NCBI GenBank assembly: GCA_964016885.1
Contig: OZ024742.1
Coordinates: 17,732,001-17,796,000 of the forward strand
Length of the DNA: 64,000 bases
Origin: Eledone cirrhosa
Lineage: Eukaryota
Direction of reading: 5' to 3'
Both the position numbers and the translations under genes were made by a program. The notes beneath the pieces were generated by a model, which worked only from the letters and a program-made list of their open reading frames with translations, ran no database searches and was not told the DNA's origin. Of this stretch, positions 15,926 to 64,000 are shown in pieces; within the stretch, counting starts at the first letter, position 1, and each line of letters starts with the position of its first letter.

Positions 15926-16502
15926 CTTCATTCTTGCTCTTGTGTTGGCATGTAAACAGAACTACAGGCCCTAATGTTTCTGGGTATCACCCTTCATCAG
16001 TACAGCTCACTGTTTACCTGCCAACTGTCAGAGCTAGCGAAAATATATGCTATTTTCTAAAATATACACTGAGTGATCGCCTGATTTGCATATTAACTGA
16101 CTGGCTGATAAATCAGATCTGCATATTAGCAGATCCACTGATAGCCAGATTTGCATATCAGCAGACTGGCCAGTCAGTTTCCTGTATACGAGCGATAAAT
16201 GGCCGGCTTTGCTAAATTCAAATAAATATAGAATGTTCGTTCTACATGGCTGAATACAATAAATGTCATGTGAGTTTTTCAAATATTGATAACAACATTC
16301 AATTCGTTTGCAATTATGCAAACAAAGCACATTTTTAACGCCATGTCAGTAGAATGAACCCTTCATTCTTGCTCTTTGTGTTGGCATGCGAACAGAACTG
16401 CAAGACACTAATGTTTCTGGGTATCACCCTTCATCAGTACAGCTCACTGTTCACATGCCATCTGTCAGAATTAGTGAAAATATATGCTATTTTCAAAAAT
16501 AC
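15923..16502 (-). mobile_element. Retrozyme-like element (unit 1): two ~140-bp direct repeats 435 bp apart, each with a hammerhead (15961-16006, 16397-16443)
   Basis: Minus strand CTGTA-CTGATGA-AGGGTGATACCCA-GAAA-CATTAGTG-TC-..; extended stem I; ATTTGCAT at 16084 and 16149. Confidence 0.8.
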
Positions 16503-16566
16503 AGAAGAAGAAGAATTTACAATTGTGTAATAATAAAGATATTTATTTTAAAATAATTGTTGTAGA

Positions 16567-16640
16567 AGTCTTCAGGAGATTCGAACACTGGTACTCCCAG
16601 TTTACTAGACTGGCGCTCTAACCAACTGAACTATGGAGCT
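16567..16640 (-). pseudogene. tRNA-Thr(AGT) degenerate copy
   Basis: Same broken T-stem variant as 14496. Confidence 0.8.
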
Positions 16641-17617
16641 ACGGATACTTTACAACCTATTCTAACTGATAAATAATGTTACAATAGTGACTAGTAGTCG
16701 ACAATAATTATTCACAGAAATGTCATGTCACTACTGTACGGAAGGAGATAATTTTCAACATATGGAAGGAATATGTGTTCACGGTTCTAAAGCTGAATTT
16801 TAAAAACCCACTGTACAAGGTCCCCAAAATGTTATACATTTGAAACCAAAACGTAAAGGACGTAATTCTATGGCCGTGAAGTGTGGTGTCCGATGTGGTG
16901 TCCGATTCTATCAGTTCACCACCCTTATATAATGGCTTCCCGATGTACACACAAAGCCAACAATTTGGGGAGAGGGGAATTTGATTACATTGACTCCAGT
17001 GTATTACTGTTACTTTATTTTATCGCAGTTGATTCCTAGAAGCAGCTGAAATGGTGTTCTTCTGAAGGGTGTTTGGTAGGGTGCATAACTTTGAGATCTT
17101 GGAGTCGCTCCAGATAGAGCCTTGCCTTCTCCCAATTGAGATATCACAGCTCCGATACTACGGACATGTGGTTAGAATGTCTAAGGAAAGAATCGGTGGA
17201 TAGATTTTACGGGCAAAGCCATGCCGGCAGGTGACCCATAGAAAGATGAAGAGCAAATTGCTCAAATAACATCCATAAGTTGGGTGTTGTGGATTATAGA
17301 ATTGGATATACTAGATCATACACTTGGAGTACATTTCTTTGATAGGATCCTCTGGAAGGCATGTCCCAGATTGTGAACCCACAATCTTCCCGTAAATAAG
17401 TGGGGAGAAAAAAGAAGGTGGAGGTGGGAAGTGAAGAAGAAGAAGAAGAAGAAGAAGAAGAAGAAGAAGAAGAAGAAAAGAAGAAGAAGAAGAAGAAGAA
17501 GAAGAAGAAGAAGAAGGAGGAGGAGGACGAGGAAAAGGGTGAAGAATAAGAAAAAAAAGCTTTAATTTACAAAGAAATTTCTTTTTCTTTTTTAAAAAAA
17601 AAAAGGTATTTTGCAGA

Positions 17618-17692
17618 AGGCTCCAGAGGGATTCGAACCCTCGACCCTCCAGTTTACTAGACTGGCGCTCTATCCAACTGAGCTATGGAGCC
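17618..17692 (-). tRNA. tRNA-Thr(AGT): tRNA-Thr(AGT), intact apart from one extra base in the variable loop (possible sequencing error)
   Basis: Identical to the 15518 copy except GACCCTCC versus GACCTCC. Confidence 0.85.
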
Positions 17693-17916
17693 ACGCTGGA
17701 CTCTAATACTGTATCCTACCTATTAAATAAACAGCTGTTACAAACATAGTCACTAGAAGTTGAAAAAAAGATTATTTTTATAATTAATCCTTATTCTGAG
17801 ATGTCAGTAAGATACGGAAGGAGATAATTGTTAACATAGTATAGAAGTAGTAGTACACGGTTCTAGAACTCTACATGCATGGGTAATCATATATGTGAGT
17901 GTGTCTGCGTGTATAT

Positions 17917-17954
<38 letters not shown>

Positions 17955-18532
17955 CCTTCATTCTTGCTCTTGTGTTGGCATGTAAACAGAACTGCAGGCA
18001 CTAATGTTTCTGGGTATCACCCCTTCATCAGTACAGCTCACTGTTTACATGACAACTGTCAGAGCTAGCGAAAATATATGCTATTTTCTAAAATATACAC
18101 TGACTAATCGGACTGATTTGCATATTAACTGACTGGCTGATAAGTCAGATCTGCATATTAGCAGATCCACTGATAGCCAGATTTGCATATCAGCAGACTG
18201 GCCAGTCAGTTTCCTGTATACGAGCGATAAATGGCCGGCTTTGCTAAATTCAAATAAATAAAGAATGTTCGTTCTACATGGCTGAATACAATAAATGTAA
18301 TGTGAGTTTTTCAAATATTGATAATAACATTCGATTCGTTTGCAATTATGCAAACAAAGCACATTTTTAACGCCATGTCAGTAGAATGAACCCTTCATTC
18401 TTGCTCTTGTGTTGGCATGCGAACAGAACTGCAGACACTAATGTTTCTGGGTATCACCCTTCATCAGTACAGCTCACTGTTCACATGCCATCTGTCAGAA
18501 TTAGTGAAAATATATGCTATTTTCAAAAATAC
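17955..18532 (-). mobile_element. Retrozyme-like element (unit 2): hammerheads at 17991-18037 (GCC site) and 18428-18473 (GUC site)
   Basis: Same direct-repeat and hammerhead structure as unit 1. Confidence 0.8.
18428..18473 (-). ncRNA. Type I hammerhead ribozyme, canonical core (representative of the GUC copies; also 20525-20570 and 22547-22592)
   Basis: GCUGUA-CUGAUGA-AGGGUGAUACCCA-GAAA-CAUUAGUG-UC-UGCAGU; stem I extends through a small bulge into GGCAUGUGAACAG/CUGUUCGCAUGCC. Confidence 0.88.
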
Positions 18533-18599
18533 AGAAGAAGAAGAACAATTTACAATTGTGTAATAATAAAGAAATTTATTTTAAAATATTTTTTGTAGA

Positions 18600-18673
18600 A
18601 GGCTTCAGAGAGATTCGAAAACTGGTACTCCAGTTTACTAGACTGGCGCTCTAACCAACTGAACTATGGAGCT
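18600..18673 (-). pseudogene. tRNA-Thr(AGT) degenerate copy
   Basis: Broken T-stem and acceptor mismatches; anticodon arm intact. Confidence 0.8.
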
Positions 18674-19534
18674 ACGGGATACTTTACAACCTATTCTAAC
18701 TGATAAATAATGTTACAATAGTGACTAGTAGTCGACAATAATTATTCACAGAAATGTCATGTCACTACTGTACGGAAGGAGATAATTTTCAACATATGGA
18801 AGGAATATGTGTTCACGGTTCTAAAGCTGAATTTTAAAAACCCACTGTACAAGGTCCCCAAATGTTATACATTTGAAACCAAAACGTAAAGGGACGTAAT
18901 TCTATGCCGTGAAGTGTGGTGTCCGATGTGGTGTCCGATTCTATCAGTTCACCACCCTTATATAATGGCTTCCGATGTACACACAAAGCCAACAATTTGG
19001 GGAGAGGGGAATTTGATTACATTGACTCCAGTGTATTACTGTTACTTTATTTTATCGCAGTTGATTCCTAGAAGCAGCTGAAATGGTGTTCTTCTGAAGG
19101 GTGTTTGGTAGGGTGCATAACTTTGAGATCTTGGAGTCGCTCCAGATAGAGCCTTGCCTTCTCCCAATTGAGATATCACAGCTCCGATACTACGGACATG
19201 TGGTTAGAATGTCTAAGGAAAGAATCGGTGGATAGATTTTACGGGCAAAGCCATGCGGCAGGTGACCCATAGAAAGATGAAGAGCAAATTGCTCAAATAA
19301 CATCCATAAGTTGGGTTGTTATTACTTGGGGATCAATAACGATCAATTGGAGTACATTTCTTTGATAGGATCCTCTGGAAGGCATGTCCCCAGATTGTGA
19401 ACCCACAATCTTCCGTAAATAAGTGGGAGAAAAAAGAAGGTGGAGGTGGGAAGTGAGAGAAGAAGAAGAAGAAGAAGAAGAAGAAGAAGAAGAAGAAGAA
19501 GAAGAAGAAGAAGAAGAAGAAGAAGAAGAAGAAG

Positions 19535-19566
<32 letters not shown>

Positions 19567-19703
19567 GAAGAAGAAGAAGAAGAAGAAGAAGAAGAAGAAG
19601 AAGGAGGAGGAGGACGAGGGAAAAGGGTGAAGAATAAGAAAAAAAGCTTTAATTTACAAAGAAATTTCTTTTTCTTTTTTAAAAAAAAAAGGTATTTTGC
19701 AGA

Positions 19704-19777
19704 AGGCTCCAGAGGGATTCGAACCCTCGACCTCCAGTTTACTAGACTGGCGCTCTATCCAACTGAGCTATGGAGCC
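19704..19777 (-). tRNA. tRNA-Thr(AGT): tRNA-Thr(AGT), intact
   Basis: Full cloverleaf, identical to the 15518 copy; long T-run downstream. Confidence 0.93.
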
Positions 19778-20014
19778 ACGCTGGACTCTATACTGTATCC
19801 TACCTATTAAATAAACAGCTGTTACAAACAATAGTCACTAGAAGTTGAAAAAAAGATTATTTTTATAATTAATCCTTATTCTGAGATGTCAGTAAGATAC
19901 GGAAGGAGATAATTGTTAACATAGTATAGAAGTAGTAGTACACGGTTAATATATTAGCTGCTAGAACTCTACATGCATGGGTAATCATATATGTGAGTGT
20001 GTCTGCGTGTATAT

Positions 20015-20052
<38 letters not shown>

Positions 20053-20629
20053 CCTTCATTCTTGCTCTTGTGTTGGCATGTAAACAGAACTGCAGGCACT
20101 AATGTTTCTGGGTATCACCCTTCATCAGTACAGCTCACTGTTTACATGACAACTGTCAGAGCTAGCGAAAATATATGCTATTTTCTAAAATATACACTGA
20201 CTAATCGGACTGATTTGGCATATTAACTGACTGGCTGATAAGTCAGATCTGCATATTAGCAGATCCACTGATAGCCAGATTTGCATATCAGCAGACTGGC
20301 CAGTCAGTTTCCTGTATACGAGCGATAAATGGCCGGCTTTGCTAATTCAAATAAATAAAGAATGTTCGTTCTACATGGCTGAATACAATAAATGTAATGT
20401 GAGTTTTTCAAATATTGATAATAACATTCGATTCGTTTGCAATTATGCAAACAAAGCACATTTTTAACGCCATGTCAGTAGAATGAACCCTTCATTCTTG
20501 CTCTTGTGTTGGCATGCGAACAGAACTGCAGACACTAATGTTTCTGGGTATCACCCTTCATCAGTACAGCTCACTGTTCACATGCCATCTGTCAGAATTA
20601 GTGAAAATATATGCTATTTTCAAAAATAC
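20053..20629 (-). mobile_element. Retrozyme-like element (unit 3): hammerheads at 20089-20134 (GCC) and 20525-20570 (GUC)
   Basis: Same structure as units 1-2. Confidence 0.8.
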
Positions 20630-20695
20630 AGAAGAAGAAGAACAATTTACAATTGTGTAATAATAAAGAAATTTATTTTAAATATTTTTTGTAGA

Positions 20696-20770
20696 AGGCT
20701 TCAGAGAGATTCGAAAACTGGTACTCCAGTTTACTAGACCTGGCGCTCTAACCAACTGAACTATGGAGCT
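20696..20770 (-). pseudogene. tRNA-Thr(AGT) degenerate copy
   Basis: Broken T-stem; 1-nt insertion in the anticodon stem. Confidence 0.8.
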
Positions 20771-21662
20771 ACGGGATACTTCACAACCTATTCTAACTGA
20801 TAAATAATGTTACAATAGTGGATTAGTAGTCGACAATCATTATTCACAGAAATGTCATGTCACTACTGTACGGAAGCAGATAATTTTCAACATATGGAAG
20901 GAATATGTGTTCACGGTTCTAAAGCTGAATTTTAAAAACCCACTGTACAAGGTCCCCAAATGTTATACATTTGAAATTAAAACGTAAAGGGACGTAATTC
21001 TATGCCGTGAAGTGTGTTGTCCGATGCTCCACCGATTCTATCAGTCCACCACCCTTATTTAGACACAAATTTCGGGAGAAGGGAAAGTCGATTACATTGA
21101 CCCCAGTGTATTACTGTTACTTTATTTTATCGTAGCTGATTCCTAGATGCAGCCGAAATGGTGTTCTTCTGAAGGGGTGTTTGGTAGGGTGCGTAACTTT
21201 GAGATCTGGGAGTCGCTCCAGATAGAGCCTTTCCTTCTCCCAATTTAGATATCACAGCTCCGATACTACGGACATGTGGTTAGAATGTCTAAGTAAAAAA
21301 TCGGTGGATAGATTTTACGGGCAAAGCCATGCGGCAGGTGACCCTTAGAAAGATGAAGAGCAAAATGCTCAAATAACATCCATAAGTTGGGTTGTTATTA
21401 CTTGGGGATCAATAAGGATCAATTGGAGTACATTTGTTCTGATAGGATCCTCTGGAAGGCATGTCCCCAGATTGTGAACCCACAATCTTCCCGTGAATAT
21501 GTGGGAGAAAAAAGAAGTTGGAGGTGCGAGGTGAAGAAGAAGAAGAAGAAGAAGAAGAAGGAGGACGAGGACGAGGAAAAAGGTGAAGAATAAGAAAAAA
21601 AGCTTTAGTTTACAAAGAAATTTCTTTTTCTGTTTTTAAAGATAAGAAAGGTACTTTGCCGA

Positions 21663-21736
21663 GGGCTCCAGAGGGATTCGAACCCTCGACCTCCAGTTTA
21701 CTAGACTGGCGCTCTATCCAACTGAGCTATGGAGCC
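21663..21736 (-). tRNA. tRNA-Thr(AGT): tRNA-Thr(AGT), intact cloverleaf, discriminator C instead of T
   Basis: Body identical to the 15518 copy. Confidence 0.88.
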
Positions 21737-21978
21737 ACGCTGGACTCTATACTGTATCCTACCTATTAAATAAACAGCTGTTACAAACAATAGTCACTAG
21801 AAGTTGAAAAAACGATTATTTTTATAATTAATCCTTATTCTGAGATGTCAGTAAGATACGGAAGGAGATAATTTTAACATAGTATAGAAGTAGTAGTACA
21901 CGGTTAATATATTAGCTGCTAGAACTCTACATGCATGGGTAATCATATATGTGAGTGTGTCTGCGTGTATATATACAA

Positions 21979-22065
<87 letters not shown>

Positions 22066-22072
22066 CATATAT

Positions 22073-22651
22073 ACCCTTCATTCTTGCTCTTGTGTTGGCA
22101 TGTAAACAGAACTGCAGGCACTAATGTTTCTGGGTATCACCCTTCATCAGTACAGCTCACTGTTTACCTGCCAACTGTCAGAGCTAGTGAAAATATATGC
22201 TATTTTCTAAAATATACACTGACTGATCGGCCTGATTTGCATATTAACTGACTGGCTGATAAGTCAGATCTGCATATTAGCAGATCCACTGATAGCCAGA
22301 TTTGCATATCAGCAGACTGGCCAGTCAGTTTCCTGTATACGAGCGATAAATGGCCAGCTTTGCTAAATTCAAATAAATAAAGAATGTTCGTTCTACATGG
22401 CTCAATACAATAAATGTCATGTGAGTTTTTCAAATATTGATAACAACATTCAATTCGTTTGCAATTATGCAAACAAAGCACATTTTTAACGCCATGTCAG
22501 TAGAATGAACCCTTCATTCTTGCTCTTGTGTTGGCATGCGAACAGAACTGCAGACACTAATGTTTCTGGGTATCACCCTTCATCAGTACAGCTCACTGTT
22601 CAAATGCCAACTGTCAGAATTAGTGAAAATATATGCTATTTTCAAAAATAC
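22073..22651 (-). mobile_element. Retrozyme-like element (unit 4): hammerheads at 22111-22156 (GCC) and 22547-22592 (GUC)
   Basis: Same structure as units 1-3. Confidence 0.8.
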
Positions 22652-22718
22652 AGCAGAAGAAGGAGAATTTACAATTGTGTAATAATAAAGATATTTATTT
22701 TAAAATAATTGTTGTAGA

Positions 22719-22792
22719 AGGCTTCAGAGAGATTCGAACACTGGTATTCCAGTTTACTAGACTGGCGCTCTAACCAACTGAACTATGGAGCT
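22719..22792 (-). pseudogene. tRNA-Thr(AGT) degenerate copy
   Basis: Broken T-stem and acceptor mismatches. Confidence 0.8.
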
Positions 22793-45190: not shown

Positions 45191-45687
45191 TATTATTACT
45201 ATTGTATCCTCACAAATACATTTAGGTATCCACCATGTTAAGAGCGGAAACAATTTTTTTTGGTTTTCTCAATATAACTTATTTAATATTCTAATTAGAG
45301 ATTCCTCTTGTAATGCTTGAGAAATAGAACTGATGTAATAATCACTGAGAACAACTGACAACACTTTCTTAATTTATCACATACTAGCAGTAAAGCCCGG
45401 CGTTACTCGGGGTCGCTCAGTAGCTGTGTTAAAGTTACAATGTTAAGTTTCTTTTTTGGCTTAAAAACTGTAGTGTCTACTGTGCAGACTTGCATGTGGT
45501 GTTTTTTATTAATATTCCCTCAACCAACAATATGCCTTATGAAGTTAAGAAAACATAACGATAACCCGAATGTTATAACAAAAGAGGATGCTGGGGATAA
45601 AAACTGCACTGGTTATTTATTAACAAAGATCGAAAATGTAAACACTGCAACGCAGAGAAAAACATTAGCGTAACCAAATTATCAGTT

Positions 45688-47335
45688 ATGTCTGTCTGCA
45701 CCAACTCCGAACACCTCTACATAGGAGCCACATCAACGAGCTTTAAGGACCGCTGGTACAACCATCGCCATTCATTCAAGAAGGAGGCCAAAAGGAAAAG
45801 CACAGCTCTCTCTGACCTGATCTGGAAGCTTAAGCTGGACAGGACCCCATACTCTCTGGCCTGGTACATAATCAGGAAAGTACAACCCGATAAAGGGGGA
45901 TCTTGTATATGCAAACTATGCCTGAACGAGACCCTCGAGATACTAAGAGGTGGAAGCGGCCTGATAAACCTCAGAACCGACTTCTTCGGGACATGCAGAC
46001 ACCTTAGAGCCGGGACCTTTCTCAAAATATATGGACAGTAGCAACACAAGAAGATGTGAACTCCCCTCAAGCTATAGGGACTTCTACAGAACATGAAAAC
46101 ACCTCTCGGCCAGACCTCCCTCAAGCTATATGGACAATTACAACAGCCTAGGTTGTGAACTCCCCTCAAGCCATAGGGAACAACCCAGGCGGAGCAGACA
46201 CCATGATAGCCTAGAGACAGAATCGGACACAGCCATAATAATCAGGCCAACATCTATAACACAAACACTTTTAATTTACCAGATTTCTGACTTTAAAGTT
46301 CCAATCTTAAATCTTGATTTCTCTATATTAATTTGTTATTTGTTTTCTGCCCTCTTCACTGTATAACCTTATATTTATTTTAAGTTGAGATAGATTATAA
46401 CACAAACACATTGAATATCTCATCTTAACATCTTGTATCATACCAATCTATCCAACATATTCTGACCTTGAGATTGGTTATAGCACACACACACACACAC
46501 TTTATCCTACATTATTTCTCACTTCTCCATATACATTATCATTACTTTTTCACCAATCTCTCATTTACTCTTTATTCTTTATTCTCTATTTATTTATTTA
46601 TTTTCAAATTACACAAATTATATTAATTATTTTATTTTATTATATTATTTATTTATCTTCTGTTTTCTTCATTTATTGCCTTATATTTCTTCATATACAT
46701 GAAATAACCCCCCCCCCCCCCGCCACCACCACTACGATGGTGGCGGGTGGGATGAAGAGAAAACACAAACTGAATACTTCTAAATTGTTAGCAGCAGCAA
46801 GATATAAGCTGACCACTACAACAACAACAGTACCAAAATAATGGTGGAGGTCAAATGTACTGAACAATAGCAGGCATAAACACTACAGGGAGCCTCACCC
46901 CAGAAAGAATTCTATAGACTTCTGACTGAGGAATGCTCTCAGAACTGAACAATGGGAAGTTTGACACATTTTTTGATATTTTGTTCCTTCAACACCTTGT
47001 CCCTTCTACCATTTTATCAATTTTTAAGCTAACTCCAACAATGACAACACTAATAACTGACCAATGAGAGGAGAAGGGGACCTGTGACACGAAAATTCGT
47101 TTGTTTGAATTCATATGACTCCAGTTCCCCAGTGAATTAACAACCCAGCAAGGAACTGGGCATATCAGAGTATTGACAATATCATACACCTAAACAACAT
47201 ATGTACTTGTCTATACCATACTAATTCAAACTGCCTGAAGAGGTCACAGCCAAAGATGGCTGTCACTGAAATATATATAGCAGTAATAAACGAAGCTAAA
47301 TTTTAATCATTTGACTTTTATTTAACTTTATTTTA
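45688..47335 (+). mobile_element. 5'-truncated Penelope-like element: GIY-YIG domain (ORF 45688-46041) and probable long 3' region ending at a hammerhead
   Basis: YIGATSTSFKDRWYNHRHSF..STALS..CKLCLNE..INLR..CRH; 3' extent inferred from the hammerhead at 47230. Confidence 0.75.
47230..47284 (+). ncRNA. Minimal type I hammerhead ribozyme
   Basis: ACTGC-CTGAAGA-GGTCACAGCCAAAGATGGCTGTCACT-GAAA-TATATA-TA-GCAGT. Confidence 0.78.
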
Positions 47336-47859: not shown

Positions 47860-48350
47860 ATATGGTTGGATACTGACAAGACTAACACCGGCCATTTCTG
47901 CGATGGGAAAGCTGAACGTCATATGGAGAAGTATCTCCATCAGTTTTCCAACGAACCTCAAACTGTACACGTCACGTCCTTGATGACTTCGATATTTGGT
48001 ATGAGTGTGAACAGTTGGACTCACACAGGTGACATGGAAGTTCTTCAGAAGGATGCTATACGTCCCATACATGGAGGACAAAACAAACAGCTTTGTCAGA
48101 CAGCAAATTAACAAATGTGTTAGCAGAGAGGAACCACTCCTTGAGATGGTGAATAGATGGAAGCTTGACTGGTATGGTCATATATCTCGCCATAACTCCT
48201 TGTACAAAACCATCCAGAGAGGGCAAAGAAGAGGCAGACAAAAAAAATGCTGGTCCGACATCAAAGACTGGACTTGACTGGTCACAACACAGAAACCCTT
48301 CTATGTATGACGGAGAATAGACACCAATGGCGACAACTGACTGCAAAAGT
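47860..48350 (+). mobile_element. RTE-clade LINE 3' fragment
   Basis: FFRRML..KTNSFVRQQI..LLEMVNRWKLDWYGHISRHNSLYKTI..RRGRQKKCW..IKDWT. Confidence 0.8.
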
Positions 48351-48354
48351 GTTG

Positions 48355-50363
48355 AGAGTGGCATCCTAGTGACAGGTAGCACCAGTGACTCATCTAGAGT
48401 GGCACCCCAGTGACAGGCTGCACCAGTGGCACATCTAGAGTGGCACCCCAGTGACAGGCTGCACCAGTGACTCATCTAGAGTGGCACCCCAGTGACAGGC
48501 TGCACCAGTGGCACATCTAGAGCGGCACCCCAGTGACAGGCTGCACCAGTGGCACATCTAGAGTGGCACCCCAGTGACAGGCTGCACCAGTGGCACATCT
48601 AGAGTGGCACCCCAGTGACAGGCTGCACCAGTGGCACATCTAGAGTGGCACCCCAGTGACAGGCTGCACCAGTGGCACATCTAGAGTGGCACCCCAGTGA
48701 CAGGCTGCACCAGTGACTCATCTAGAGTGGCACCCCAGTGACAGGCTGCACCAGTGGCACATCTAGAGCGGCACCCCAGTGACAGGCTGCACCAGTGGCA
48801 CATCTAGAGTGGCACCCCAGTGACAGGCTGCACCAGTGGCACATCTAGAGCGGCACCCCAGTGACAGGCTGCACCAGTGGCACATCTAGAGTGGCACCCC
48901 AGTGACAGGCTGCACCAGTGGCACATCTAGAGTGGCACCCCAGTGACAGGCTGCACCAGTGACTCATCTAGAGTGGCACCCCAGTGACAGGCTGCACCAG
49001 TGGCACATCTAGAGTGGCACATCAGCGACAGGCTGCACCAGTGGCACATCTAGAGCGGCACCCCAGTGACAGGCTGCACCAGTGGCACATTTAGAGTGGC
49101 ACCCCAGTGACAGGCTGCACCAGTGGCACATCTAGAGTGGCACCCCAGTGACAGGCTGCACCAGTGGCACATCTAGAGTGGCACCCCAGTGACATGCTGC
49201 ACCAGTGGCACATCTAGAGTGGCACCCCAGTGACAGGCTGCACCAGTGACTCATCTAGAGTGGCACCCCAGTGACAGGCTGCACCAGTGGCACATCTAGA
49301 GCGGCACCCCAGTGACAGGCTGCACCAGTGGCACATCTAGAGTGGCACCCCAGTGACAGGCTGCACCAGTGGCACATCTAGAGCGGCACCCCAGTGACAG
49401 GCTGCACCAGTGGCACATCTAGAGTGGCACCCCAGTGACAGGCTGCACCAGTGGCACATCTAGAGTGGCATCCCAGTGACAGGCTGCACCAGTGACTCAT
49501 CTAGAGTGGCACCCCAGTGACAGGCTGCACCAGTGGCACATCTAGAGTGGCACATCTAGAGTGGCACATCAGCGACAGGCTGCACCAGTGGCACATCTAG
49601 AGCGGCACCCCAGTGACAGGCTGCACCAGTGGCACATCTAGAGTGGCACCCCAGTGACAGGCTGCACCAGTGGCACATCTAGAGTGGCACATCAGTGACA
49701 GGCTGCACCAGTGGCACATCTAGAGCGGCACCCCAGTGACAGGCTGCACCAGTGGCACATCTAGAGTGGCACCCCAGTGACAGGCTGCACCAGTGGCACA
49801 TCTAGAGTGGCACATCAGCTACAGGCTGCACCAGTGGCACATCTAGAGTGGCACCCCAGTGACAGGCTGCACCAGTGGCACATCTAGAGTGGCACCCCAG
49901 TGACAGGCTGCACCAGTGGCACATCTAGAGTGGCACGTCAGTGACAGGCTGCACCAGTGGCACATCTAGTGTGGCACCCCAGTGACAGGCTGCACCAGTG
50001 GCACATCTAGAGTGGCACCCAGTGACAGGCTGCACCAGTGGCACATCTAGAGTGGCACGTCAGTGACAGGCTGCACCAGTGGCACATCTAGAGTGGCACA
50101 TCAGCGACAGGCTGTACCAGTGGCGCATCTAGAGTGGCACCCCAGTGACAGGCTGCACCAGTGGCGCATTTAGAGTGGCACATCAGCGACTGGCGGTTCC
50201 AGTGGCTCATATAGAGTGGCACTCCAACGGCAGGCTGCACCAGTGGCACATCTAGAGTGGCACATCAGCGACAGGCTGTACCAGTGGCGCATTTAGAGTG
50301 GCACCCCAGCGACTGGCGGTTCCAGTGGCACATATAGAGTGGCACTCCAACGGCAGGCTGCAC
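48355..50363 (+). repeat. 41-bp minisatellite, about 48 copies (GCACCAGTGGCACATCTAGAGTGGCACCCCAGTGACAGGCT)
   Basis: Period 41 (e.g. 48421 to 48462); no spacers; diverged units at both ends. Confidence 0.97.
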
Positions 50364-51320: not shown

Positions 51321-51925
51321 CATACATACATACATACATACATACATACATACATACATACATACATACATACATACATACATACATACATACATACATT
51401 CCATCAGTCAACGCGATCAGTCGCATATTTTGGCGTGGGAGACTATTTATTAAATTTAAGATGAATACTATCTCCGACAGTAATGCCACAACTACAGCCA
51501 GGTTGAATAACTGGTTATTCTTCTAACTATCCCTTCTGAAGACACCTTTTATTCGAATTCGTAGAGATATCCGACTAAATACATAATTCATTTTACAAGG
51601 ATTTGCTACAAACAGCATGGCTAAACACAACATCAACAAGAAAATTAAGGAAGTATCGAAGACAAATAACAAAGAAGATAATCAAACTTTATTCAGTTGT
51701 AGCTACAGAAGAAACCGAAATTATAAATCGCATTTCTCTTGGAGTTGCGAACTTAATAATGATTTATTTAATTGTTATAAAATGGCAAAAAACAATCCCT
51801 CCATTGGCTATATGAATAGAATGAAGCTACACTGGGACGAAATGCACCCAAAGCTAAATTATTTCACAGCGAAACAATTACGCCAACAAGCGACGTTTGT
51901 TGAACGTAAAAATAAGATAAATATT

Positions 51926-52319
51926 TAAGTTAAAAATGTACATCTACATATGCATACTGAAATACTAGTATGCATATGAATACACACACGTATACATATG
52001 TAGATGTACCAAGTCTTTCACTGGTTACTTTACTGTGAGTATCCAGCTATTCTGTATGTAAACACACAGACAAACCGGTTTTTAGAGTCATACTGGTTTT
52101 TGAGGAAACACCTTTCCTCTATTCTCCAGAAAGCCAGACAAGGAATATTGAACTAGTTTCGTTGTTGTTACAACTCATCAGCAATATTTACCTATCTACC
52201 GGCCTTTCTGGAGAATCGTAAAAGCACATATCGTTATATGCTTTTTCTATGAAAATTAGTAGTGGGCAGACTAATTTGCATAGAGTGTGAGTACGTACCG
52301 GCTCAACGGTATTTGTTTT
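51926..52319 (-). mobile_element. 394-bp single-hammerhead (retrozyme-like) insertion with 13-bp TSD
   Basis: TAAGATAAATATT at 51913-51925 and 52320-52332; removal restores the host frame (RKNKINI-INCKSPTTNMEST). Confidence 0.82.
52144..52188 (-). ncRNA. Minimal type I hammerhead ribozyme
   Basis: AAUAUUG-CUGAUGA-GUUGU AACA ACAAC-GAAA-CUAG-UU-CAAUAUU; distal pairing CTCCAGAAAG/CTTTCTGGAG. Confidence 0.85.
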
Positions 52320-55300
52320 TAAGATAAATATTATTAATTGTAAGTCCCCCACAACAAACATGGAATCAACAACACGTGCTACAGATCGCCATGCTACTAG
52401 ACTTCCTAGCAGCCAGGTCGAACAGCGCCTTGAAACAACTATGCCTGTCCCATCTAAGTCTACCTCGAATGCTGGGGAAAACACTATCCATAATAATAAT
52501 AATCGAAGAAATAATAATAATAATCGAATAAATGTGACACCACGTATACCATCCGAGTCTACCTCGACTGTTGTGGAAAATACTATCGATAATGATAATC
52601 AAAAGTACAAACAATTGAAAATTTCCCTAAACAAAATCTTCCAGAGAGAAATTAACTCATGTATAAATATCTCTCTGGCTGAACGTGTTAAAATGACAAT
52701 GGTGAATAAAAAACCAAATAACGAAATACTACGTGTTATTGACGAAATAGGGGATGAATATTTACGACGGATAAAACCCCCAACATTTTGGCAAATCAAC
52801 GCCTGTTTATATGCCTGAGCAATGACAGTGAAGCATTATCTTGGTCATAGCAGAGATATTAACAAGAACAAAACACCACCAAAAATACCATCATATATAA
52901 CTAAAATAGAAAAAAAGAGTGCTGACCTACGAAAAAACATAGGACATGTGATAATGCTCCTTACATGCAAACAAACACAAAAAAACCTCACTCCTCACCA
53001 ACAAAGAGTGAAAAATAAAATAGAGACGATGTTTGGTAACAGTAGAACCAGAACTCTCCAATATAAGCTGATCACCCTCAAACAAGAATTGAGAGCTGTT
53101 AGCGAAAAACGCTGATACCTGAAGAAGGTAGATGAGAGAAAAATGCTTAATAAAAGATTCAGACGAAACCAAACATCAGTCTATAGAGATATGAAGGGCA
53201 AAATAATAAGTGTCACTGAGGCCCCATACCAGAAAGACATAGATTCCTTTTGGAGAAAAATATGGGGTGAAAAGAAGAATTTCAACCAAGATGCAGTGTG
53301 GCTAAGAGAAATCCGAAAGAACTATTGCTCCTACACTACAACAAAAACATACGAAATAAGTGAGGGTACCCTTGAGACTGTGATAGGAAAACTCCAAGAT
53401 AAGAAAACACCAGGAAGAGACATGATTGTCGGCTACTGGTACAAAAAACTAATATTCTATCGGAGGTATCTTACTGACCTCTACCAACAAGTTCTTAAGA
53501 GAGATACACTTATACCAGAATGGTTGACATTAGCGCAAACGTTACTGGTCCCCAAGAACAAAGACACCCACTTGGCAAAAAACTACCGACCCATTGCATG
53601 CCAGTACCTGATGTATAAGATGTATACAGCCTGCCTCAACCTATTCCTCCAAGATCACTGTGAAAATAATAACATCATCACAGATGAACAAGCAGCTGGA
53701 AAGAAAAGGGTTTGGGGATGTGCTGAACAACTCCTAATCAACAAAACTGCGATGTCGGAGGTGCAACAACTTAGGAGGCATATGACTACAGTCTGGCTGG
53801 ACTACAAGAAAGCTTTCGATTCCGTTCCCCACTCTTGGATGATAGAGGCCCTCCAACTTGCTAAAGTCCCAGACATTATTGTCAGTCATAGAGAGGCTGT
53901 CTTCTTCTTGTGCTACTATCCTAAGTTTAAAGACAGAGAGGGAGGACTCTATTTTCACTGATAAAATAAAATATTGCAGGGGTATATTTCAGGGGGACAG
54001 TCTCTCTGTGATATTGTTCATCTTGTCATTAAACCCCTTGTCCTTTCTGCTCAAGAAATGTGAGATATACATCATTGGCTCACAGGAGGACAGAAATACG
54101 AACCTAACCCACCCATAATTTCTTTGTGGACGATCTGAAACTCTATGCCAAGAACATGGATGGGATGAAGAAAAATCTTGACCTTGTTACAACGTTCTCA
54201 AAGGATATAGGAGTGGAGTTTGGCCAAGATAAATGCTCATACATGACTGTAAAGCGGGGAAAAACAACAACCCAATCTAGCAACATTGTCATCAATGGTC
54301 TAACTGTTTCACCGATATCTTATGAGCACTGCTACAGATACCTGGTGATAGATGAGAACATATCCTATAATGGTATCTGTAATAAGGAACGCGTAACCAG
54401 GGAATACTACACCCGATTAAGAAAGATTTGGTCATCGGAACTCTCTGCGCAAAACAAAACAGTGGCTCACAATGTGTTTGCTGTGCCTGTCCTAACACCA
54501 ACGTTTGGAATACTCAATTGGACGATAGACGAAATCCGAGCAGTTGATGTTGGAACTCGAAAAATACTGAACACCGGAAACTTCCACATCAACAGTGACA
54601 TAGACCGCCTTTACTTGAAACGTAAGCAGAGAGGCAGAGGCCTAACATCAGTCCAGCCAACATTTGAATGTCGCATCATATCTCTCCGACAACATCTACA
54701 AACCTCGAAGCGTAGGAGCCCGCTTCTCGAGCAAGTCTATCTGCATGAAACAGATAAGATCATGAGAGTTGGGAAGGAACTCCTTGAGAGATATTCCCTG
54801 TGTGATAATCAAAAACTCACATCCAGGGATGTCGCTCAGCAGTATCGCAGTGAATCCATGGATGAAAAACTGCATGCCTATCAGCAAAAAATCATGCATG
54901 GATATGTTGCCAGGAAGCTCCAGAGTGAGAGTAATATAGATAAGGAAAGTAGTCTATCTTGGACCAACAACCGCTATATTGGCTCCCACTTTGAAGGATA
55001 CGCCTTTGCAATCCAAGAACAGGAGATTAGCACGAAATACCTGATTCACAAAAGAGATAGGGATGCAGGCAAAACACCTAGATGTGATAACAAGTGCAGA
55101 CTCTGCATAATTAACATCGAGGATATCACCCATGTAATCAGCAGCTGCCCAAAGATCTCATCGTGGTACTATCTACCTATGAGGCATGATGTAGTGGCCA
55201 AAACACTGTACAATGCAATCCGTAAAAAAGATAGCCCTGATAATAACACATTAAAAGCTACAGCAATGTGGAAGACATCCATGTACATAATATGAAAGAG

Positions 55301-56421
55301 TACTGGTGGAATGTTCCAGTAAAAACTCCAATAAAATGCAGACATAATAGACCAGATATTATGATATGGGACAGGGAAAAGAAGGCATGCACAGTAGTGG
55401 AAATTAGCTGCCCAGCAGATGCCAATATAATATCAAAGATTAGTGAAAAGGAGAATATTTATGCAGAACTGATAAGAAATCTGCAGATACTCCACCCTGA
55501 TTACACCTTCAGATTTATGCCTGTGATTATTGGGGCACTGGGGTATATTAGTAACTGCCTCAATACAAATCTTGAGTAGCTGGGCTTCACAGGAACAGAA
55601 AGAACACAACTAGTTAGGAAATTACAAGTACAATCCATTAATTGAACAGTAAAAATATGTAAAACATTCCAAAAGTTGTGCATCTAATAACTTCATATAC
55701 ACATGTACAGATACAAAGCATATACACATGCACACATACAACTCAAAATATCCACATCCACACATACAATAACTTCCATATCTACACATGCATACATACA
55801 TACATATCTACCTAGTTGATGTTGTGTAAATTCCAATGCGAGAGTCTTGTGTCTATGTTAGAAACCGACTCTCTCTCTATTGGGAAAACTTTGTGAAATT
55901 ATAAAACCAGAAGAACATATATATACATACATAGGCACTTATAAAATAACATAGTTCTTTACTTATAGGTTTCGCGTCCGTTATGATTTCAATGTAGTAG
56001 TCTGTTACTTGCCATATAGGTATTTGACAGCTATCTTTACGCTATAAAAACTAGAAGGAGTATATTTAAATTATACCCACATCTCCTCATGCGATCATCA
56101 CAAAGACACCATATTTATTCATGTATTTGATGACAGAGGGAAACGCACTGTAATTTATCTGAGAATTCAAGCTTATACAGAAACCAATAAAATTTCAGCT
56201 ATAAATAATTCCTAACATTTCCCAATATCACTATTTCTTATTTCTTATTCTATTTGATTGTAATGGAAATACAGATACATAATCTATACAAGGAGAGTTT
56301 GAAATTCCTTAAAGTATATGTGTTTCAAGTTAGTGAGGTTTGGCATGTAATCTTGTTGTATATACACATATGTGTGTGTATATATATATATGTGTGTATG
56401 TATTATATATTATATATATAT

Positions 56422-57499: not shown

Positions 57500-59150
57500 G
57501 TTTTAACACCTCGGGCCGGATTTCATTCAAAGACTACATCAACTACAACCTAACCAACTTAAACTCAACAGATATGCCTTCAGCCTCGATATTGTCTGCC
57601 TCTACACGACAGCGGTCAACCCAGTGATTGAGTGCATTATTTCATACAACATATACTGCTTTGACCTCATTCTACAAGACATACATCAGCTTCTATCCGT
57701 CATCGTAGAAAATATATATATTTCACTTTCTACCACCACACATACAAACAAACAACAGGCCTACCCATGGGGTCCAGTCTTTCAGGCATTCTAGCCATCA
57801 CCTATATGAACCAACAGGAACGTCGAGTGCTCAACACCTGCTGCTCCTGTGTTTTCTTCACCCGATACAAAGATGATATACCAATCCTCACATCATACCG
57901 TGAAGGGGCCGACATAATATCTCCGGCATTTTCAAACAAAGATATCAACATACGATTTACTACAGAACATCCCGATGAAAATGGTTCCTTGTCTCTGTTG
58001 GACTTCCAGCTTAGAGTAACAGAAGAAGGTGCTATATACACCAACTTTTATAAGGAAGCTGCCAGCAGAGACCTGTTTGTGCATTACAGATCAGCCCTTC
58101 CCCTTGGTGTTAAAACCGGATACATAAGAAATGAACTTACGCGTATCCGGAATAAATGTAGCAAGACAGAGAACCAGATCAATCACACTGCAGCACACTT
58201 CATAGATATACTGCAGACGAACTGATACCCAACATCCACAGTGAATCGACTTAAGAATCGAAGGCAGAAGACCTCCTCTGACACCTGATTCGTGAAATTA
58301 CCACATTTCAGCGAAAGCATAACCACAGCTGTCCGCTGAGCTATCCGCAAAGAAGGACTGGACATACAGTTACCACACTCCGGCGCTTCTCTGCGTGGAC
58401 ACCTGTCTTAAAAGCAATCCAGCGACAACAACCATCAATGCTCGCTGACCAACTGCCCAATCCGCGATACAGGTATGTACCAGCGGGCACGTGTGGTATA
58501 CCGGAGTGAATGCAACAAATATAAGGAGTTCTACATTGGTAGCACGACTCGAGCACTCCACACTCGCATTAAAGAACACCTCAACACACGCATCCCCATT
58601 CAAAAATACATTGACAAATGTAGAAACATCAACAAACATATTACCGTTACCATTAAAGCCAGTGATAGAAATGTGGGCAACTTAAGAATTAAGGAAGCCT
58701 TGCTTATACGTAGACTCAACCTGGAAATAAATAATAGATTAGAACTCAGTACACAGTACTTGATATAAAACGACACACCCACAGGTACACAAACTAAACA
58801 TCTCATATAAAAAAGAAATTGATTTCGTGAAATACTATATTGGCATTTGACGTCATTCACGTGGAAAGCGAAATAACCATAAAAAAAGCTTAAAACGACT
58901 TAGAAAAGAATTTAATCAAAGTCAAAATGTTATCCCAGAGAGGAAATTGGAACATTATCCACTGAAAGTTCCTTAAACCTTGATGAAGGGACTTTTAGGT
59001 CCCGAAATATTGGACAGGTAAAAGAAGAAGAACAACAACAACACAAATATTAACAGGTAACTTACTTTTACTTATCGTTACCTCATCTTACAGTCCACCT
59101 TGCATTGTTTAGCCTTCTACCTCTTTCAACGTTATATATGATATACAATG
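57500..59150 (+). mobile_element. Degraded Penelope-like element (RT and GIY-YIG)
   Basis: GLPMGSSLSGILA, RYKDD, LSLLD, HYRSALP..K; VVYRSECNKYKEFYIGSTTRALHTRIKEH..IKEALLI..INNR (58475-58768). Confidence 0.85.
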
Positions 59151-59562: not shown

Positions 59563-59823
59563 ACGAAGGAAATGTGGTAAGGAACCAGGTGGACCATAAC
59601 GCACCAAAGTACTCAATACTTGAGGTAGTAGAGTGGGTAATAGGAACCAGTAAGACCCCGACAGCTGAGCTCAAGCCGTTTCGACGGCTAATTCTGGACT
59701 GTATATATATATATATTTAAAGGTTAAACAAGGTTCAATGAATAAATCAAAGAATAACATTTTACAATAGATTGGAAGCACTCCACAATATTAACAAAAA
59801 TAGGCATTCGTGTGATCAAGTAT

Positions 59824-59888
59824 ATTTTATTATACATATTTCAGAGGTACTGAGCTATCTTCAACAGTACGTCCTCATCAGATAAAAT
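59824..59888 (-). ncRNA. Minimal type I hammerhead ribozyme
   Basis: TATTTTAT-CTGATGA-GGACGTACTG..CAGTACCTCT-GAAA-TATGTA-TA-ATAAAATA. Confidence 0.72.
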
Positions 59889-62800
59889 AAGATGATGCAT
59901 GACATACCCTGACTAAGTAGATGGTTAACATTCAGTCATAGCAGTGAATAAGATATGACAAAACTCAATATTTATATACCTTAAGATTGAGACATGAAAA
60001 GATTACATATAATACAGAGGGTGCGTGTGAGAAAACTTATAAAGATACATAGTAATAAACAACTACTAATATAATATAAACTTACATAACTGTTAGAGAT
60101 TCAAATAATTTAAATTATTGAAGAAAGAAGAAAGACAGAGAGAGAAACAGATGAGGAAAAAGAGAGTGACTAGAAGTATAGAAATATCTTATGCACGAAA
60201 GCAAAAGAGAATTGATTAAGGATAAAGAGACAAGGAAGAATAATTTTTATAGTATAAAGCATAGAGAGGGAGGTTTGTATTGTCGTGGATAAATAACGTA
60301 TAATTAGATGATGCAAAAATATATATATTATATATAAATAAATATACATTTGGGCATAGCTTTCTGAATGAATAATTTCAAATCGTTGAATTATCTAGAA
60401 ATAATCAATCAATCAAAATATCAAATATATCTGGGTGTAGTTATATGAGAGTTTAATTTCTAGTCCTTAAGTTAATTAGAAATAGACTATTGATCAATTA
60501 TATATATCCAAACGTATCCGGATGACCGTTAAATTTCGAATCATTTATGTTAGTTCAAAATAGTGAATTAATCTAAAGGTATAATATTTCGGGCTATAAA
60601 AATGTATAAGTATTTATATTATAGTATAATATCATATTTAAAGTATTTGCAAACATGAGAGAGAAGAGACTTAATATTTTCTTCATCCCGAAAGTGATCC
60701 ATATTAAACTATATTAAAAGAATTTATATTAAAGAGATTTTATATTAAAAAATAATCATTATATAATTTAGAAAGTAATTACAATTATAACTTTAAAAAT
60801 TTTAAATTAACAATTAGAATGCCCTAAAGTATCCAAAGGCCTTATAATTATACTTAAAAAGGATATTATTAAACTAGATATACGCATTTGTCTAAATGTA
60901 TACAAAGCGTATATTGTTTAAAGTTTAAGACGATATTAGTCAGTTATATATAATATAATATAATAAATAAGTTACTGTTAATATTGTTAAAATTAAGGTT
61001 TTACGTCAATTATTATATTAGGATCATGTAATACATATATACTATAAATATACAAATCAAACTTCATGAATCATAAAAGATAAGACACAGATTCAAAATA
61101 AATAAATAAATGGTTTGCGATCCTATAAGTGTCAAATATCTAAGCTATATAATTTAAAAATACATGAACATTTTTAATGATCTATATTATAGTATAATAT
61201 CATATTTAAATTTTCATAATTAGTAATTATTAATAGGGTCTCCATAGTAAAAAGATTGCAGTTAGGTGATATTGAAGAATTCAAGTAGATTCGACTATTA
61301 TACAGCTTTGACCAAGAAATCGAGTATTTTAAATGTTTGTCTTTTAATGACCATATAAGTTGTGATAAAGAAGTCGAAGATTTCCTAATAGGATTCGAAA
61401 AAGAACATTTGTGATTCGAAAATCTTAATTTAAATGTCGATGAAGTTGCACCAATATAGTTATATGTGATGTTATTTGCTTTTACGGTGCATTTATAGAC
61501 CAGATTGCTAACTGCAATCTTTGTACTATGGAGACCCTATTAATAATTACTAATTATGAAAATTTAATTAACAAAAAAAGTGAATTATTCTCAAATTGCC
61601 TACATAAAGCTTCTTCTACATTCCAAGCCTCGCAAAAAGTCAGGAAAAAACATTCAATAAATAAGTTCTAATTTTTGACGTTTCTTATCAAATGAGTGCG
61701 TAAAATGATACTATAACAGATTATAATAATTTTTATTCATTTACGATATGATTAATGTTAGATTAAGGGTTCTATATAAATATATAAACATATAGACTGT
61801 TAACATGATCTCTTGATGAATATGCATATCATTTGATTGTGTAAATACATTTAATTTTGTCGGGATTTTTGTATTTTTTTAAATATATAGCTTATATGGT
61901 TAACAGTTATTAGGAACCGTAGACCATTCATTTATTTATTTTGAATATGTTGTTTTTAAGATTCCAGATGTTTGATTTATATAATTATGGTAAATGTGTC
62001 GCACACGATCGTAGTCGACAAACTTCTTCCACTTAACTTGATGTAAAACTTCAATTATAACATTATTAACAGTAATTGTATTATTATTTATTATATGTAT
62101 ATAAATCACTAATATCGTCTTAAGTTTTAAACAGAATACTCTTTATGTATTTAGACAAATGTGTATATCTAGTTTAATAACATCCTTCTAGATACATTTA
62201 TAAGTGCCTTAGATACTTAAGGACATTCTAGTGTTATAATTGTTAAATATTTTCTAAATTATATAATGATTATTTTTTAATATAAAATGTGTTTTAATAT
62301 AATTAGATTTGGGTTACCTTCGGGTTGATGAAAATCTTAAGTCTTTTCTTTCTCATGTTTGCAGACACTTTAAATATGATATTATACTATAATATAGATC
62401 ATTAAAAATGTTCATGTATTTTTAAATTATATAGCTTAGATATTTGACACTTATAGGATCGCAAACCATTTATTTATTTATTTTGAATCTGTGTCTTATC
62501 TTTTATGATTCATGAAGTTTGATTTGTATATTTATAGTATATATGTATTACATGATCCTAATATAATAATTGACGTAAAACCTTAATTTTAACAATATTA
62601 ACAGTAACTTATTTATTATATTATATTATATATAACTGACTAATATCGTCTTAAACTTTAAACAATATACGCTTTGTATACATTTAGACAAATGCGTATA
62701 TCTAGTTTAATAATATCCTTTTTAAGTATAATTATAAGGCCTTTGGATACTTTAGGGCATTCTAATTGTTAATTTAAAATTTTTAAAGTTATAATTGTAA

Positions 62801-63691
62801 TTACTTTCTAAATTATATAATGATTATTTTTTAATATAAAATCTCTTTAATATAAATTCTTTTAATATAGTTTAATATGGATCACTTTCGGGATGAAGAA
62901 AATATTAAGTCTCTTCTCTCTCATGTTTGCAAATACTTTAAATATGATATTATACTATTATAAATACTTATACATTTTTATAGCCCGAAATATTATACCT
63001 TTAGATTAATTCACTATTTTGAACTAACATAAATGATTCGAAATTTAACGGTCATCCGGATACGTTTGGATATATATAATTAATTAATAGTCTATTTCTA
63101 ATTAACTTAAGGACTAGAAATTAAACTCTCATATAACTACACCCAGATAGATTTGATATTTTGATTGATTGATTATTTCTAGATAATTCAACGATTCGAA
63201 ATTATTCATTCACAAAGCTATGCCCAAATGTATATTTATTTATTTATATATATATATATATTTTTGCATCATCTAATTATACGTTATTTATCCACGACAA
63301 TACAAACCTCCCTCCCTATGCTTTATACTATAACAATTATTCTTCCTTGTCTCTTTATCCTTAATCAATTCTCTTTTGCTTTCGTGCATAAGATATTTCT
63401 ATACTTCTAGTCACTCTCTTTTTCCTCATCTGTTTCTCTCTCTGTCTTTCTTCTTTCTTCAATAATTTAAATTATTTGAATCTCTAACAGTTATGTAAGT
63501 TTATATTATATTAGTAGTTGTTTATTATTATGTATTTTTATAAGCTTTCTCACACGCACCCTCTGTATTATATGTAATCTTTTCATGTCTCAATCTTAAG
63601 GTATATAAATATTGAGTTTTGTCATATCTTATTCACTGCCATGACTGAATCTTAACCATATACTTAGTCAAGGTATGTCAAGCATCGTCTT

Positions 63692-63755
63692 ATTTTATCT
63701 GATGAGGACGTACTGTTGAAGATAGCTCAGTACCTCTGAAATATGTATAATAAAA
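63692..63755 (+). ncRNA. Minimal type I hammerhead ribozyme (mirror copy)
   Basis: TTTTAT-CTGATGA (63699)-GGACGTACTGTTGAAGATAGCTCAGTACCTCT-GAAA-TATGTA-TA-ATAAAA. Confidence 0.72.
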
Positions 63756-64000
63756 CATACTTGATCACACGAATGTCTATTTTTGTTAATATTTTGAATT
63801 AATATATATATATAAATATATATATATAAATATATATATATTATATATATATAGAAGTGGTTAGACAACAGTTAGTTCACCATACCGAGAACAATTGTTT
63901 CACCTTACGGATCCTCAACTCGTAATGGGCATGGTTATACGGAATGATTCTCGCATGTGCTTTCATAACCTGCAAGAGTCTGCCGACAGAAGAACAAAAA

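What the first reader, a model, noticed from the sequence alone, without database searches (positions are those of the whole stretch)
51913..52332. A 394-bp single-hammerhead element inserted with a perfect 13-bp TSD into a Dong ORF
Seen: TAAGATAAATATT is duplicated on both sides, and excision rejoins the host reading frame, so the boundaries are exact. The insert has no convincing ORF, no TIRs and no poly(A) or microsatellite tail. It has a clean minimal hammerhead (palindromic ACUAGU stem III, GUU site, extended stem I), ATTTGCAT at 52274-52281, and a long hairpin at about 51937-52010. Inference: integration of about one monomer of a small (possibly circular) ribozyme RNA, probably by a Penelope-type RT/GIY-YIG in trans. 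This is a well-delimited retrozyme insertion.
Basis: partly seen in the sequence, partly recalled or inferred. Interest (0 to 1): 0.7.

Follow-up and report, generated by a model that had tools for sequence, protein, structure and literature searches.

The report
Two-armed hammerhead retrozyme, Penelope-style insertion
This insert is a cut-short copy of a young, protein-free 466-base repeat that carries a predicted self-cutting RNA and lands as two back-to-back arms starting at two different fixed points; Penelope-type jumping genes in the same genome leave the same footprint, so their enzymes likely copy it.

Summary
In detail: a 13-bp duplication, a 394-nt insert, a restored host frame, 24 of 24 other host copies empty, and a covarying type I hammerhead. 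The reading 'about one monomer with exact ends' does not. The unit is a 466-nt tandem monomer (1,473 exact hits of one 32-mer). Insertions are usually two head-to-head arms in (AT)n, with outer ends at two fixed sites about 70 nt apart: of 98 loci, 62 have one of each, 3 two short-site ends, 0 two tail-site ends, and 33 one classifiable end. An autonomous Penelope-like family here shows the same rule (15 of 15). Arms run through the ribozyme site, so the template is likely a circle or an uncleaved multimer. No coding version or helper was identified; cleavage, transcription and circles are untested. Verdict: a new non-LTR retrozyme family whose footprint supports the published Penelope-helper hypothesis. 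This scan noted the same footprint before, on other DNA.

The parts
51913..51925 (+). Left target-site duplication (13 bp)
   Evidence: single copy in 24 of 24 other host copies
51926..52309 (-). Long arm: unit positions 1-384 of the 466-nt monomer. RNA sense is the minus strand; its 3' end is the 'short' start site S at 51926; 5'-truncated at 52309
   Evidence: one difference from the commonest monomer
51938..52009 (-). Long AT-rich hairpin whose base lies 12 nt 5' of the S site on the RNA; the related family has a TA-repeat-rich hairpin at the same place
52136..52197 (-). Type I hammerhead: bulged extended helix I, 4-bp helix II, palindromic ACUAGU helix III; predicted cut after GUU between 52151 and 52150
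   Evidence: Rfam HH9 E 3e-8; compensatory changes across subfamilies
52274..52281 (-). Octamer ATGCAAAT inside a 10-nt block invariant in four monomers that are 57-62% identical to this one; possible promoter element (inferred)
52310..52321 (+). Tiny inverted second arm: reverse complement of unit positions 391-402, ending at the 'tail' start site T; its last 2 nt are shared with the right duplication
52320..52332 (+). Right target-site duplication (13 bp)
51587..55579 (+). Host: broken non-LTR retrotransposon (RT, CCHC knuckle, restriction-like endonuclease motif) downstream of a (TACA)n tract; mostly 93-99% identical to the other copies fetched

Best explanation
The insert is a truncated two-armed copy of a young, non-coding 466-nt hammerhead repeat (a non-LTR retrozyme), likely copied into the genome by the reverse transcriptase and GIY-YIG endonuclease of a Penelope-like element acting in trans. 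Shown: insertions sit mostly in (AT)n, have 11-14 bp duplications where these can be read, and consist of two head-to-head arms. One arm starts at site S (unit 459-1), the other at site T (unit 390), about 70 nt further 3' on the RNA. The inner ends are variable and the arms run through the ribozyme site into further monomers. Inferred: the enzyme, probably as a dimer, makes a staggered double-strand cut with roughly 13-nt 3' overhangs. Each 3' end primes cDNA inside the RNA with 2-3 nt of pairing, one at S and one at T. The two cDNAs stop at random points and are joined by microhomology repair. Here the T-primed cDNA survived as only 10-12 nt. The template is probably a ribozyme-made circle or an uncleaved multimer (circle in at least some events, about 55%). 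The helper family is not identified.
For: Family: 1,473 exact hits of a 32-mer against 0 for the control; monomer 466 nt. End pairing in 98 loci: 62 S+T, 3 S+S, 0 T+T, 33 with one classifiable end; 62 of 65 gives p 1e-15 against free choice. The same rule holds in the related family (6 of 6 loci with both ends readable, of 12 examined), in an autonomous 900-aa RT+GIY-YIG family (15 of 15 such loci among 31, 40-nt tail) and in a third coding family (3 loci with one HHR-bearing arm each way, all S+T, among 20). Arm lengths are uncorrelated (Spearman -0.02), and in 18 of 52 clean loci neither arm is contained in the other. Junctions mostly show 1-5 nt overlap. Duplications are 11-14 bp at six loci with unique flanks. 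Arms cross the cut site 112 times; 2 of 104 inner ends lie within 2 nt of it, against 1.1 expected. Rare variants are fixed in every unit of both arms at some loci, e.g. L041 8 of 8 and L064 6 of 6. Helix covariation: 31 cells with change on both sides against 11.9 shuffled, 0 of 500. Literature: two internal RT start sites that define the 'tail', cleavage and extension of both strands, AT-rich targets and a predicted dimer (Frangieh 2024); tail often at one end only, inverted truncated arm (Craig 2021).
Against: No Penelope family tested shares sequence with the unit: blastn and local alignment of the S-T regions of six families, all p >= 0.09. The helper is therefore inferred from the footprint alone. 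A third of loci (33 of 98) have only one classifiable end and 3 break the rule. At five loci (L024, L033, L039, L047, L048) variants are in some but not all units, on both arms, which a single monomeric circle does not explain. Inner ends within 4 nt of the cut site are slightly in excess (5 of 104 against 2.0, p 0.05). The covariation rests on related, hand-picked sequences, mostly two families, and the distal helix I pairs hold in 5 of 16 sequences at two of three positions. The isolated hammerhead does not fold better than shuffles (z -1.3). In vitro, Frangieh saw no difference in start site between strands, and the ribozyme was not needed for insertion. 39 of the 98 loci were best hits, which biases towards long arms.
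Confidence: 0.82

Rival explanations
1. The unit is only the terminal repeat (pLTR) of an autonomous Penelope-like element, and all copies, this one included, are 5'-truncated pieces of that element.
For: Truncated inverted pLTR pieces are the commonest PLE remnants (Craig 2021). Only 98 loci were read. One locus (L042/L276) runs directly from young PLE RT sequence into the unit, with 4 nt of microhomology.
Against: Arms go monomer to monomer for up to 3-7 units in young loci with no coding sequence between. The 62 S+T loci consist of unit sequence, apart from short junction fillers. Of 32 one-ended loci, two have PLE coding DNA at the junction, from two different families. The 19 other copies of the L042 PLE family fetched do not carry the unit.
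Confidence: 0.07
2. Only one cDNA is target-primed. The second arm is a fold-back (self-primed) copy of the first, and its end is trimmed by the endonuclease, giving the tail at one end only.
For: Self-priming was proposed for PLE inverted repeats (Arkhipova 2013) and endonuclease resolution for the tail (Craig 2021). Both arms share rare variants. Palindrome centres are unstable, so later deletions could hide the original overlap.
Against: In 18 of 52 loci, this one included, neither arm contains the other; arm lengths are uncorrelated; either arm can be the longer (25 of 52 S longer). In vitro both strands are cut and extended from internal start sites.
Confidence: 0.08
3. Same Penelope-type integration, but always from linear multimeric transcripts of tandem arrays; no RNA circle takes part and the ribozyme is incidental to insertion. 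This competes with the circle step only, and the number is its share of that step.
For: Arrays of 31 and 49 units exist that could be source loci. Mixed-variant units are shared by both arms at five loci, and alternating patterns occur at L058 and L082. The palindromic helix III and the GUU site suggest weak cleavage (inference). Ribozyme mutants did not affect PLE insertion in vitro.
Against: Rare variants fixed in all 6-8 units of both arms (L041, L037, L064) need a one-monomer bottleneck followed by re-amplification. The two long arrays show higher-order repeats, i.e. later DNA-level expansion, and the 49-unit array carries three variants absent from the commonest monomer. Compensatory changes keep the ribozyme helices.
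Confidence: 0.4

Closest known systems
Animal non-LTR retrozymes (Cervera & de la Pena 2020, PMC7229834, passages read; Li, Clavereau & Pollet 2026, bioRxiv 10.64898/2026.07.22.740005, parts 1-3 of 5 read)
   Same: Non-coding, low-GC tandem unit with one type I hammerhead per monomer, highly self-paired (circular fold z about -10), duplications longer than 4 bp, dispersed copies and arrays, Penelope-like elements in the same genome.
   Different: Monomer 466 nt (above the 170-400 nt of the 2020 paper, within the 51-972 bp of the 2026 preprint). In the text I read, neither paper describes inverted two-arm insertions, fixed priming sites or a tail; both argue for a PLE helper from co-occurrence or pLTR homology. 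Here no pLTR homology was found; the evidence is the footprint. Their supplements were not seen.
Endonuclease-bearing Penelope-like elements (Frangieh 2024, PMC11167929, parts 1-2 of 4 read; Craig 2021, PMC8557442, and Arkhipova 2013, PMC3846280, passages read)
   Same: Partial tandems, inverted truncated arm, tail at one end, two internal RT start sites downstream of a hammerhead, AT-rich or (TA)n targets, duplications of about 10 bp.
   Different: No ORF. Tail about 70 nt rather than 30-40 (coding families here have about 40, 95 and 100 nt). Canonical rather than minimal hammerhead. One-of-each pairing is counted here (62 of 65); the papers call the tail optional or often at one end.
Newt satellite 2 (snRNA-type promoter cited in PMC2220036, passage read; the original paper was not held)
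   Same: Hammerhead tandem repeat with a palindromic helix III; a conserved octamer upstream of the ribozyme (the octamer in satellite 2 is recalled, not read).
   Different: Promoter activity untested here; no sequence comparison made.

Membership tests
Non-LTR retrozyme | Short non-coding unit in head-to-tail tandem copies | tested here: met
   466-nt unit, dimers to 49-mers; longest stop-free frame 60 codons
Non-LTR retrozyme | One type I hammerhead per monomer with intact core | tested here: met
   Rfam HH9 E 3e-8 but below gathering; core invariant in the 16 aligned variants, which were chosen by a core pattern; helix covariation
Non-LTR retrozyme | No LTR, PBS or PPT; duplications longer than 4 bp | tested here: met
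   13 bp here, 11-14 bp at six readable loci; ends are S/T sites, not LTRs; PBS and PPT not searched separately
Non-LTR retrozyme | Self-cleavage of the RNA | not testable with these tools
   needs a cleavage assay
Non-LTR retrozyme | Expressed as linear and circular monomer RNA | not testable with these tools
   no RNA run was listed as a holder; genomic variant patterns are mixed
Penelope-type insertion footprint | Inverted 5'-truncated arm next to a tandem arm | tested here: met
   here a 10-12 nt arm
Penelope-type insertion footprint | Two fixed start sites (tail at one end) | tested here: met
   62 S+T, 3 S+S, 0 T+T, 33 one end, of 98
Penelope-type insertion footprint | AT-rich or (AT)n targets | tested here: met
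   69 of 78 T ends abut an AT run; this copy is in an AT-rich non-repeat site
Autonomous Penelope-like element | RT plus GIY-YIG ORF between pLTRs | tested here: not met
   no ORF in the unit; no coding DNA within two-ended loci; two one-ended loci abut PLE coding DNA
pLTR derivative of a known helper | Sequence homology to the pLTR of an autonomous PLE | tested here: inconclusive
   none with the families sampled; the genome holds more families than were sampled
PLE minimal hammerhead (min-HHR) | No helix III, core only | tested here: not met
   2-bp palindromic helix III, 4-bp helix II, extended helix I
Dong / R4 clade (host element) | RT phylogeny with named R4/Dong elements | not tested
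   only domain order and microsatellite context seen; nearest Atlas cluster unnamed, commonest in Mollusca

The most novel reading that the evidence does not exclude
Penelope-type integration is asymmetric by design: one enzyme dimer holds one RNA, commits one reverse transcriptase to each of two start sites (here each about 12 nt 3' of a hairpin), primes both ends of a staggered break, and can roll round a ribozyme-made circle. This retrozyme would be a 466-nt parasite that recruits such an enzyme by RNA shape, without detectable sequence homology to its helper, and that seeds satellite arrays after insertion.
Probability: 0.4. Interest if true: 0.72.

Novelty: new member of a known kind. Interest (0 to 1): 0.48.

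Why it matters
Which enzyme moves animal retrozymes, and how Penelope-like elements make their tandem-plus-inverted insertions with a tail at one end, are both stated as open in the papers read. This family gives a countable genomic answer to the first and a sharp rule for the second: one start site per arm. It also offers a small, recently active RNA and at least three young coding families in the same genome for an in vitro test. This copy is useful because it landed in non-repetitive sequence with empty sister sites, so the 13-nt stagger and both priming junctions can be read. The class itself and the PLE-helper idea are already published, which limits the surprise.

Tried and rejected
Helper search. 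I read four coding Penelope-like groups: A (900 aa, L101), B (894 aa, L192), a B-relative (L276-L295) and the L196-L199 group. I also read several HHR-bearing ends without their ORFs. None aligned to the unit. A likeness seen by eye around the S site of family A failed the shuffle test (p 0.27). Apparent chimeras L193 and L194 are retrozymes nested in the (AT)n flank of a PLE. L051 abuts a decayed PLE and L066 has another repeat in between. L042/L276 remains ambiguous (one locus; template switch or deletion). As a control, 6 of 116 flanks of two-ended loci have PLE protein hits within 1.2 kb. An apparent pile-up of S-arm ends just before site T was not significant (5 of 52 against 2.8, p 0.15). 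No RNA holder was listed. Laying four contig runs of unrecorded type gave no information on transcription or circles. Rfam at gathering thresholds misses the ribozyme; the miRNA hits on the hairpin are far below gathering and were dismissed. My first automatic end classification mistook one S variant for T and was redone; the arm parser failed on 10 of 62 loci, which were dropped from length and end statistics. The newt promoter paper was not held. Literature searches for octopus plus hammerhead, retrozyme plus tail plus inverted plus Penelope, and recent PLE structure papers listed nothing describing this footprint in a retrozyme; most subscription papers and the supplements were not searchable.

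Full report
Observation. The 13-mer lies at 51913-51925 and 52320-52332 and nowhere else in the window. The 394 nt between interrupt a host reading frame that is continuous once the insert and one 13-mer are removed. I fetched the 25 best of about 1,544 candidates for the left flank: one is this locus, and 24 of the other 24 have the 13-mer once and continue into the right flank. The duplication is therefore real and the insertion is private to this copy. The host is a broken non-LTR element with RT, a CCHC knuckle and a restriction-like endonuclease motif (read); the name Dong is plausible but untested. A type I hammerhead lies on the minus strand at 52136-52197 (HH9 model, E 3e-8, 38.6 bits, below gathering), with a predicted cut after GUU between 52151 and 52150.

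The unit is not 394 nt. A genome search gave 555 candidates; the 40 scored held 127 matches, nearly all 99-100% identical, and every other copy matched only positions 1-384. Tandem copies define a 466-nt monomer. An exact 32-mer from its start has 1,473 hits against 0 for the control. A core pattern with the ACUAGU helix III has 39,742 hits against 1; it covers this family and a related one of 422-538 nt that is 57-62% identical. The unit has no ORF and folds strongly as a circle (z about -10 on 30 shuffles). Across 16 subfamily variants the helices show 31 cells with changes on both sides against 11.9 in shuffles (0 of 500), although the sequences are related and were picked by a core pattern.

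Architecture. I read 98 loci: 39 best hits (one pair is a duplicate) and 59 taken mostly by position along contig 1. The typical insertion is two head-to-head arms in an (AT)n tract. The outer (RNA 3') ends fall at two fixed sites: S (unit 459-1, a small cluster) and T (unit 390), about 70 nt further 3' on the RNA. Counts are 62 S+T, 3 S+S, 0 T+T and 33 with one classifiable end. One S+S case is two nested insertions of different subfamilies. Several one-end cases, this locus included, have a tiny second arm that the automatic rule missed. Here the last 10 nt of the insert and the first 2 nt of the right duplication are the reverse complement of unit 391-402 (chance about 4e-6), so this copy is S arm 384 nt plus T arm 10-12 nt. 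Duplications at six loci with unique flanks are 11-14 bp. In the 52 of 62 loci that parsed cleanly, median arm lengths are 474 and 498 nt, lengths are uncorrelated, junctions mostly overlap by 1-5 nt, and in 18 neither arm is contained in the other. On the RNA, the T site and the innermost S position each lie 12 nt 3' of a hairpin.

Same footprint in coding elements. The genome holds young Penelope-like families. Family A has a 3,127-bp unit and a 900-aa RT+GIY-YIG ORF; all 15 loci with both ends in view, among 31 examined, have one short and one 40-nt-longer end in (AT)n. Family B and a B-relative (3 of 3 two-armed loci among 20) do the same with tails near 100 nt, and so does the related retrozyme family (6 of 6 readable among 12). 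This matches the literature: two internal RT start sites delimit the tail, both strands are cut and extended, and a dimer is predicted (Frangieh 2024); the tail is often at one end only (Craig 2021). None of the coding families aligns to the unit. One locus joins young PLE RT sequence to the retrozyme through 4 nt of microhomology, and has a PLE S end on the left and the retrozyme T end on the right. That fits a template switch but equally a deletion, so it is only a lead.

Template. Arms cross the ribozyme site 112 times, and only 2 of 104 inner ends fall within 2 nt of it (1.1 expected; 5 against 2.0 within 4 nt, p 0.05). Cleaved linear monomers are therefore not the main template. Subfamily-diagnostic variants are nearly always fixed within a locus, and rare variants are fixed in all units of both arms at several loci (L041 8 of 8, L064 6 of 6), as rolling round one circle predicts. 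Five loci instead have variants in only some units on both arms, as a mixed multimer or later gene conversion predicts. Arrays of 31 and 49 units begin and end with ordinary S and T ends but show shared-variant or higher-order patterns, so they grew at the DNA level after insertion. No RNA data were available to test expression.

Mechanism. Most likely (0.82) a Penelope-type RT/GIY-YIG protein binds the retrozyme RNA, cuts AT-rich DNA with a stagger of about 13 nt, primes one cDNA from each 3' end, one at S and one at T, and repair joins the two truncated products. The ends, pairing, targets and duplications are shown; the enzyme, the dimer, cleavage and the circle are inferred. Rivals are a truncated pLTR of an unseen coding element (0.07) and a fold-back second arm (0.08). 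Within the favoured model, linear multimers rather than circles remain open (about 0.4).

Comparison and novelty. It works like the terminal repeat of a Penelope-like element and meets the sequence-level criteria of a non-LTR retrozyme; the RNA-level criteria could not be tested. Cervera & de la Pena 2020 (passages) and Li et al. 2026 (parts 1-3 of 5) propose PLE helpers from co-occurrence and pLTR homology. I found no description of this two-arm, two-site footprint in a retrozyme in those texts or in searches; supplements were not seen. Earlier notes of this scan report the same footprint for another retrozyme family of this genome and in other genomes. They agree with a reading I had recorded before seeing them and are not independent evidence. 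The animal is probably a mollusc (inference). Verdict: real feature, new member of a known kind, interest 0.48.

Noticed in passing
window 12713-22792: Array of nine tRNA-Thr(AGT) genes at about 1-kb spacing inside a roughly 2-kb repeat; each 2-kb unit also holds two hammerhead cores 436 bp apart (16000/16437, 18031/18467, 20128/20564, 22150/22586, minus strand), suggesting another ribozyme repeat amplified with the tRNA genes.
   Followed up: no
window 59784-63796: Large inverted arms (97-99% complementary) with a hammerhead core near each outer end (59881 minus, 63699 plus) and a GIY-YIG-like remnant inside; looks like another two-armed Penelope-type insertion.
   Followed up: partly
window 45601-47300 and 57519-58768: Truncated pieces of two Penelope-like families; the first is 99% identical at protein level to young family B, the second 55-62% to family A.
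   Followed up: yes
L211-L213 (G000:C1:95.94-95.97 Mb) and L151-L152 (G000:C1:5.74-5.75 Mb): 49- and 31-unit arms bounded by normal S and T ends, with 7- and 8-unit higher-order repeats in the larger: a satellite array growing out of a single retrozyme insertion.
   Followed up: partly
L042:2181-2190 (extended as L276): Young PLE RT sequence runs directly into the retrozyme through 4 nt of microhomology; the whole insertion has a PLE S end and a retrozyme T end. Possible template switch naming a helper.
   Followed up: partly
alignment A1, column 54: The base before the cut differs by subfamily: GUU in the youngest copies, GUC in some older ones, GUA in most of the related family.
   Followed up: no
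window 48232-49700: 41-bp minisatellite of about 30 near-identical units.
   Followed up: no
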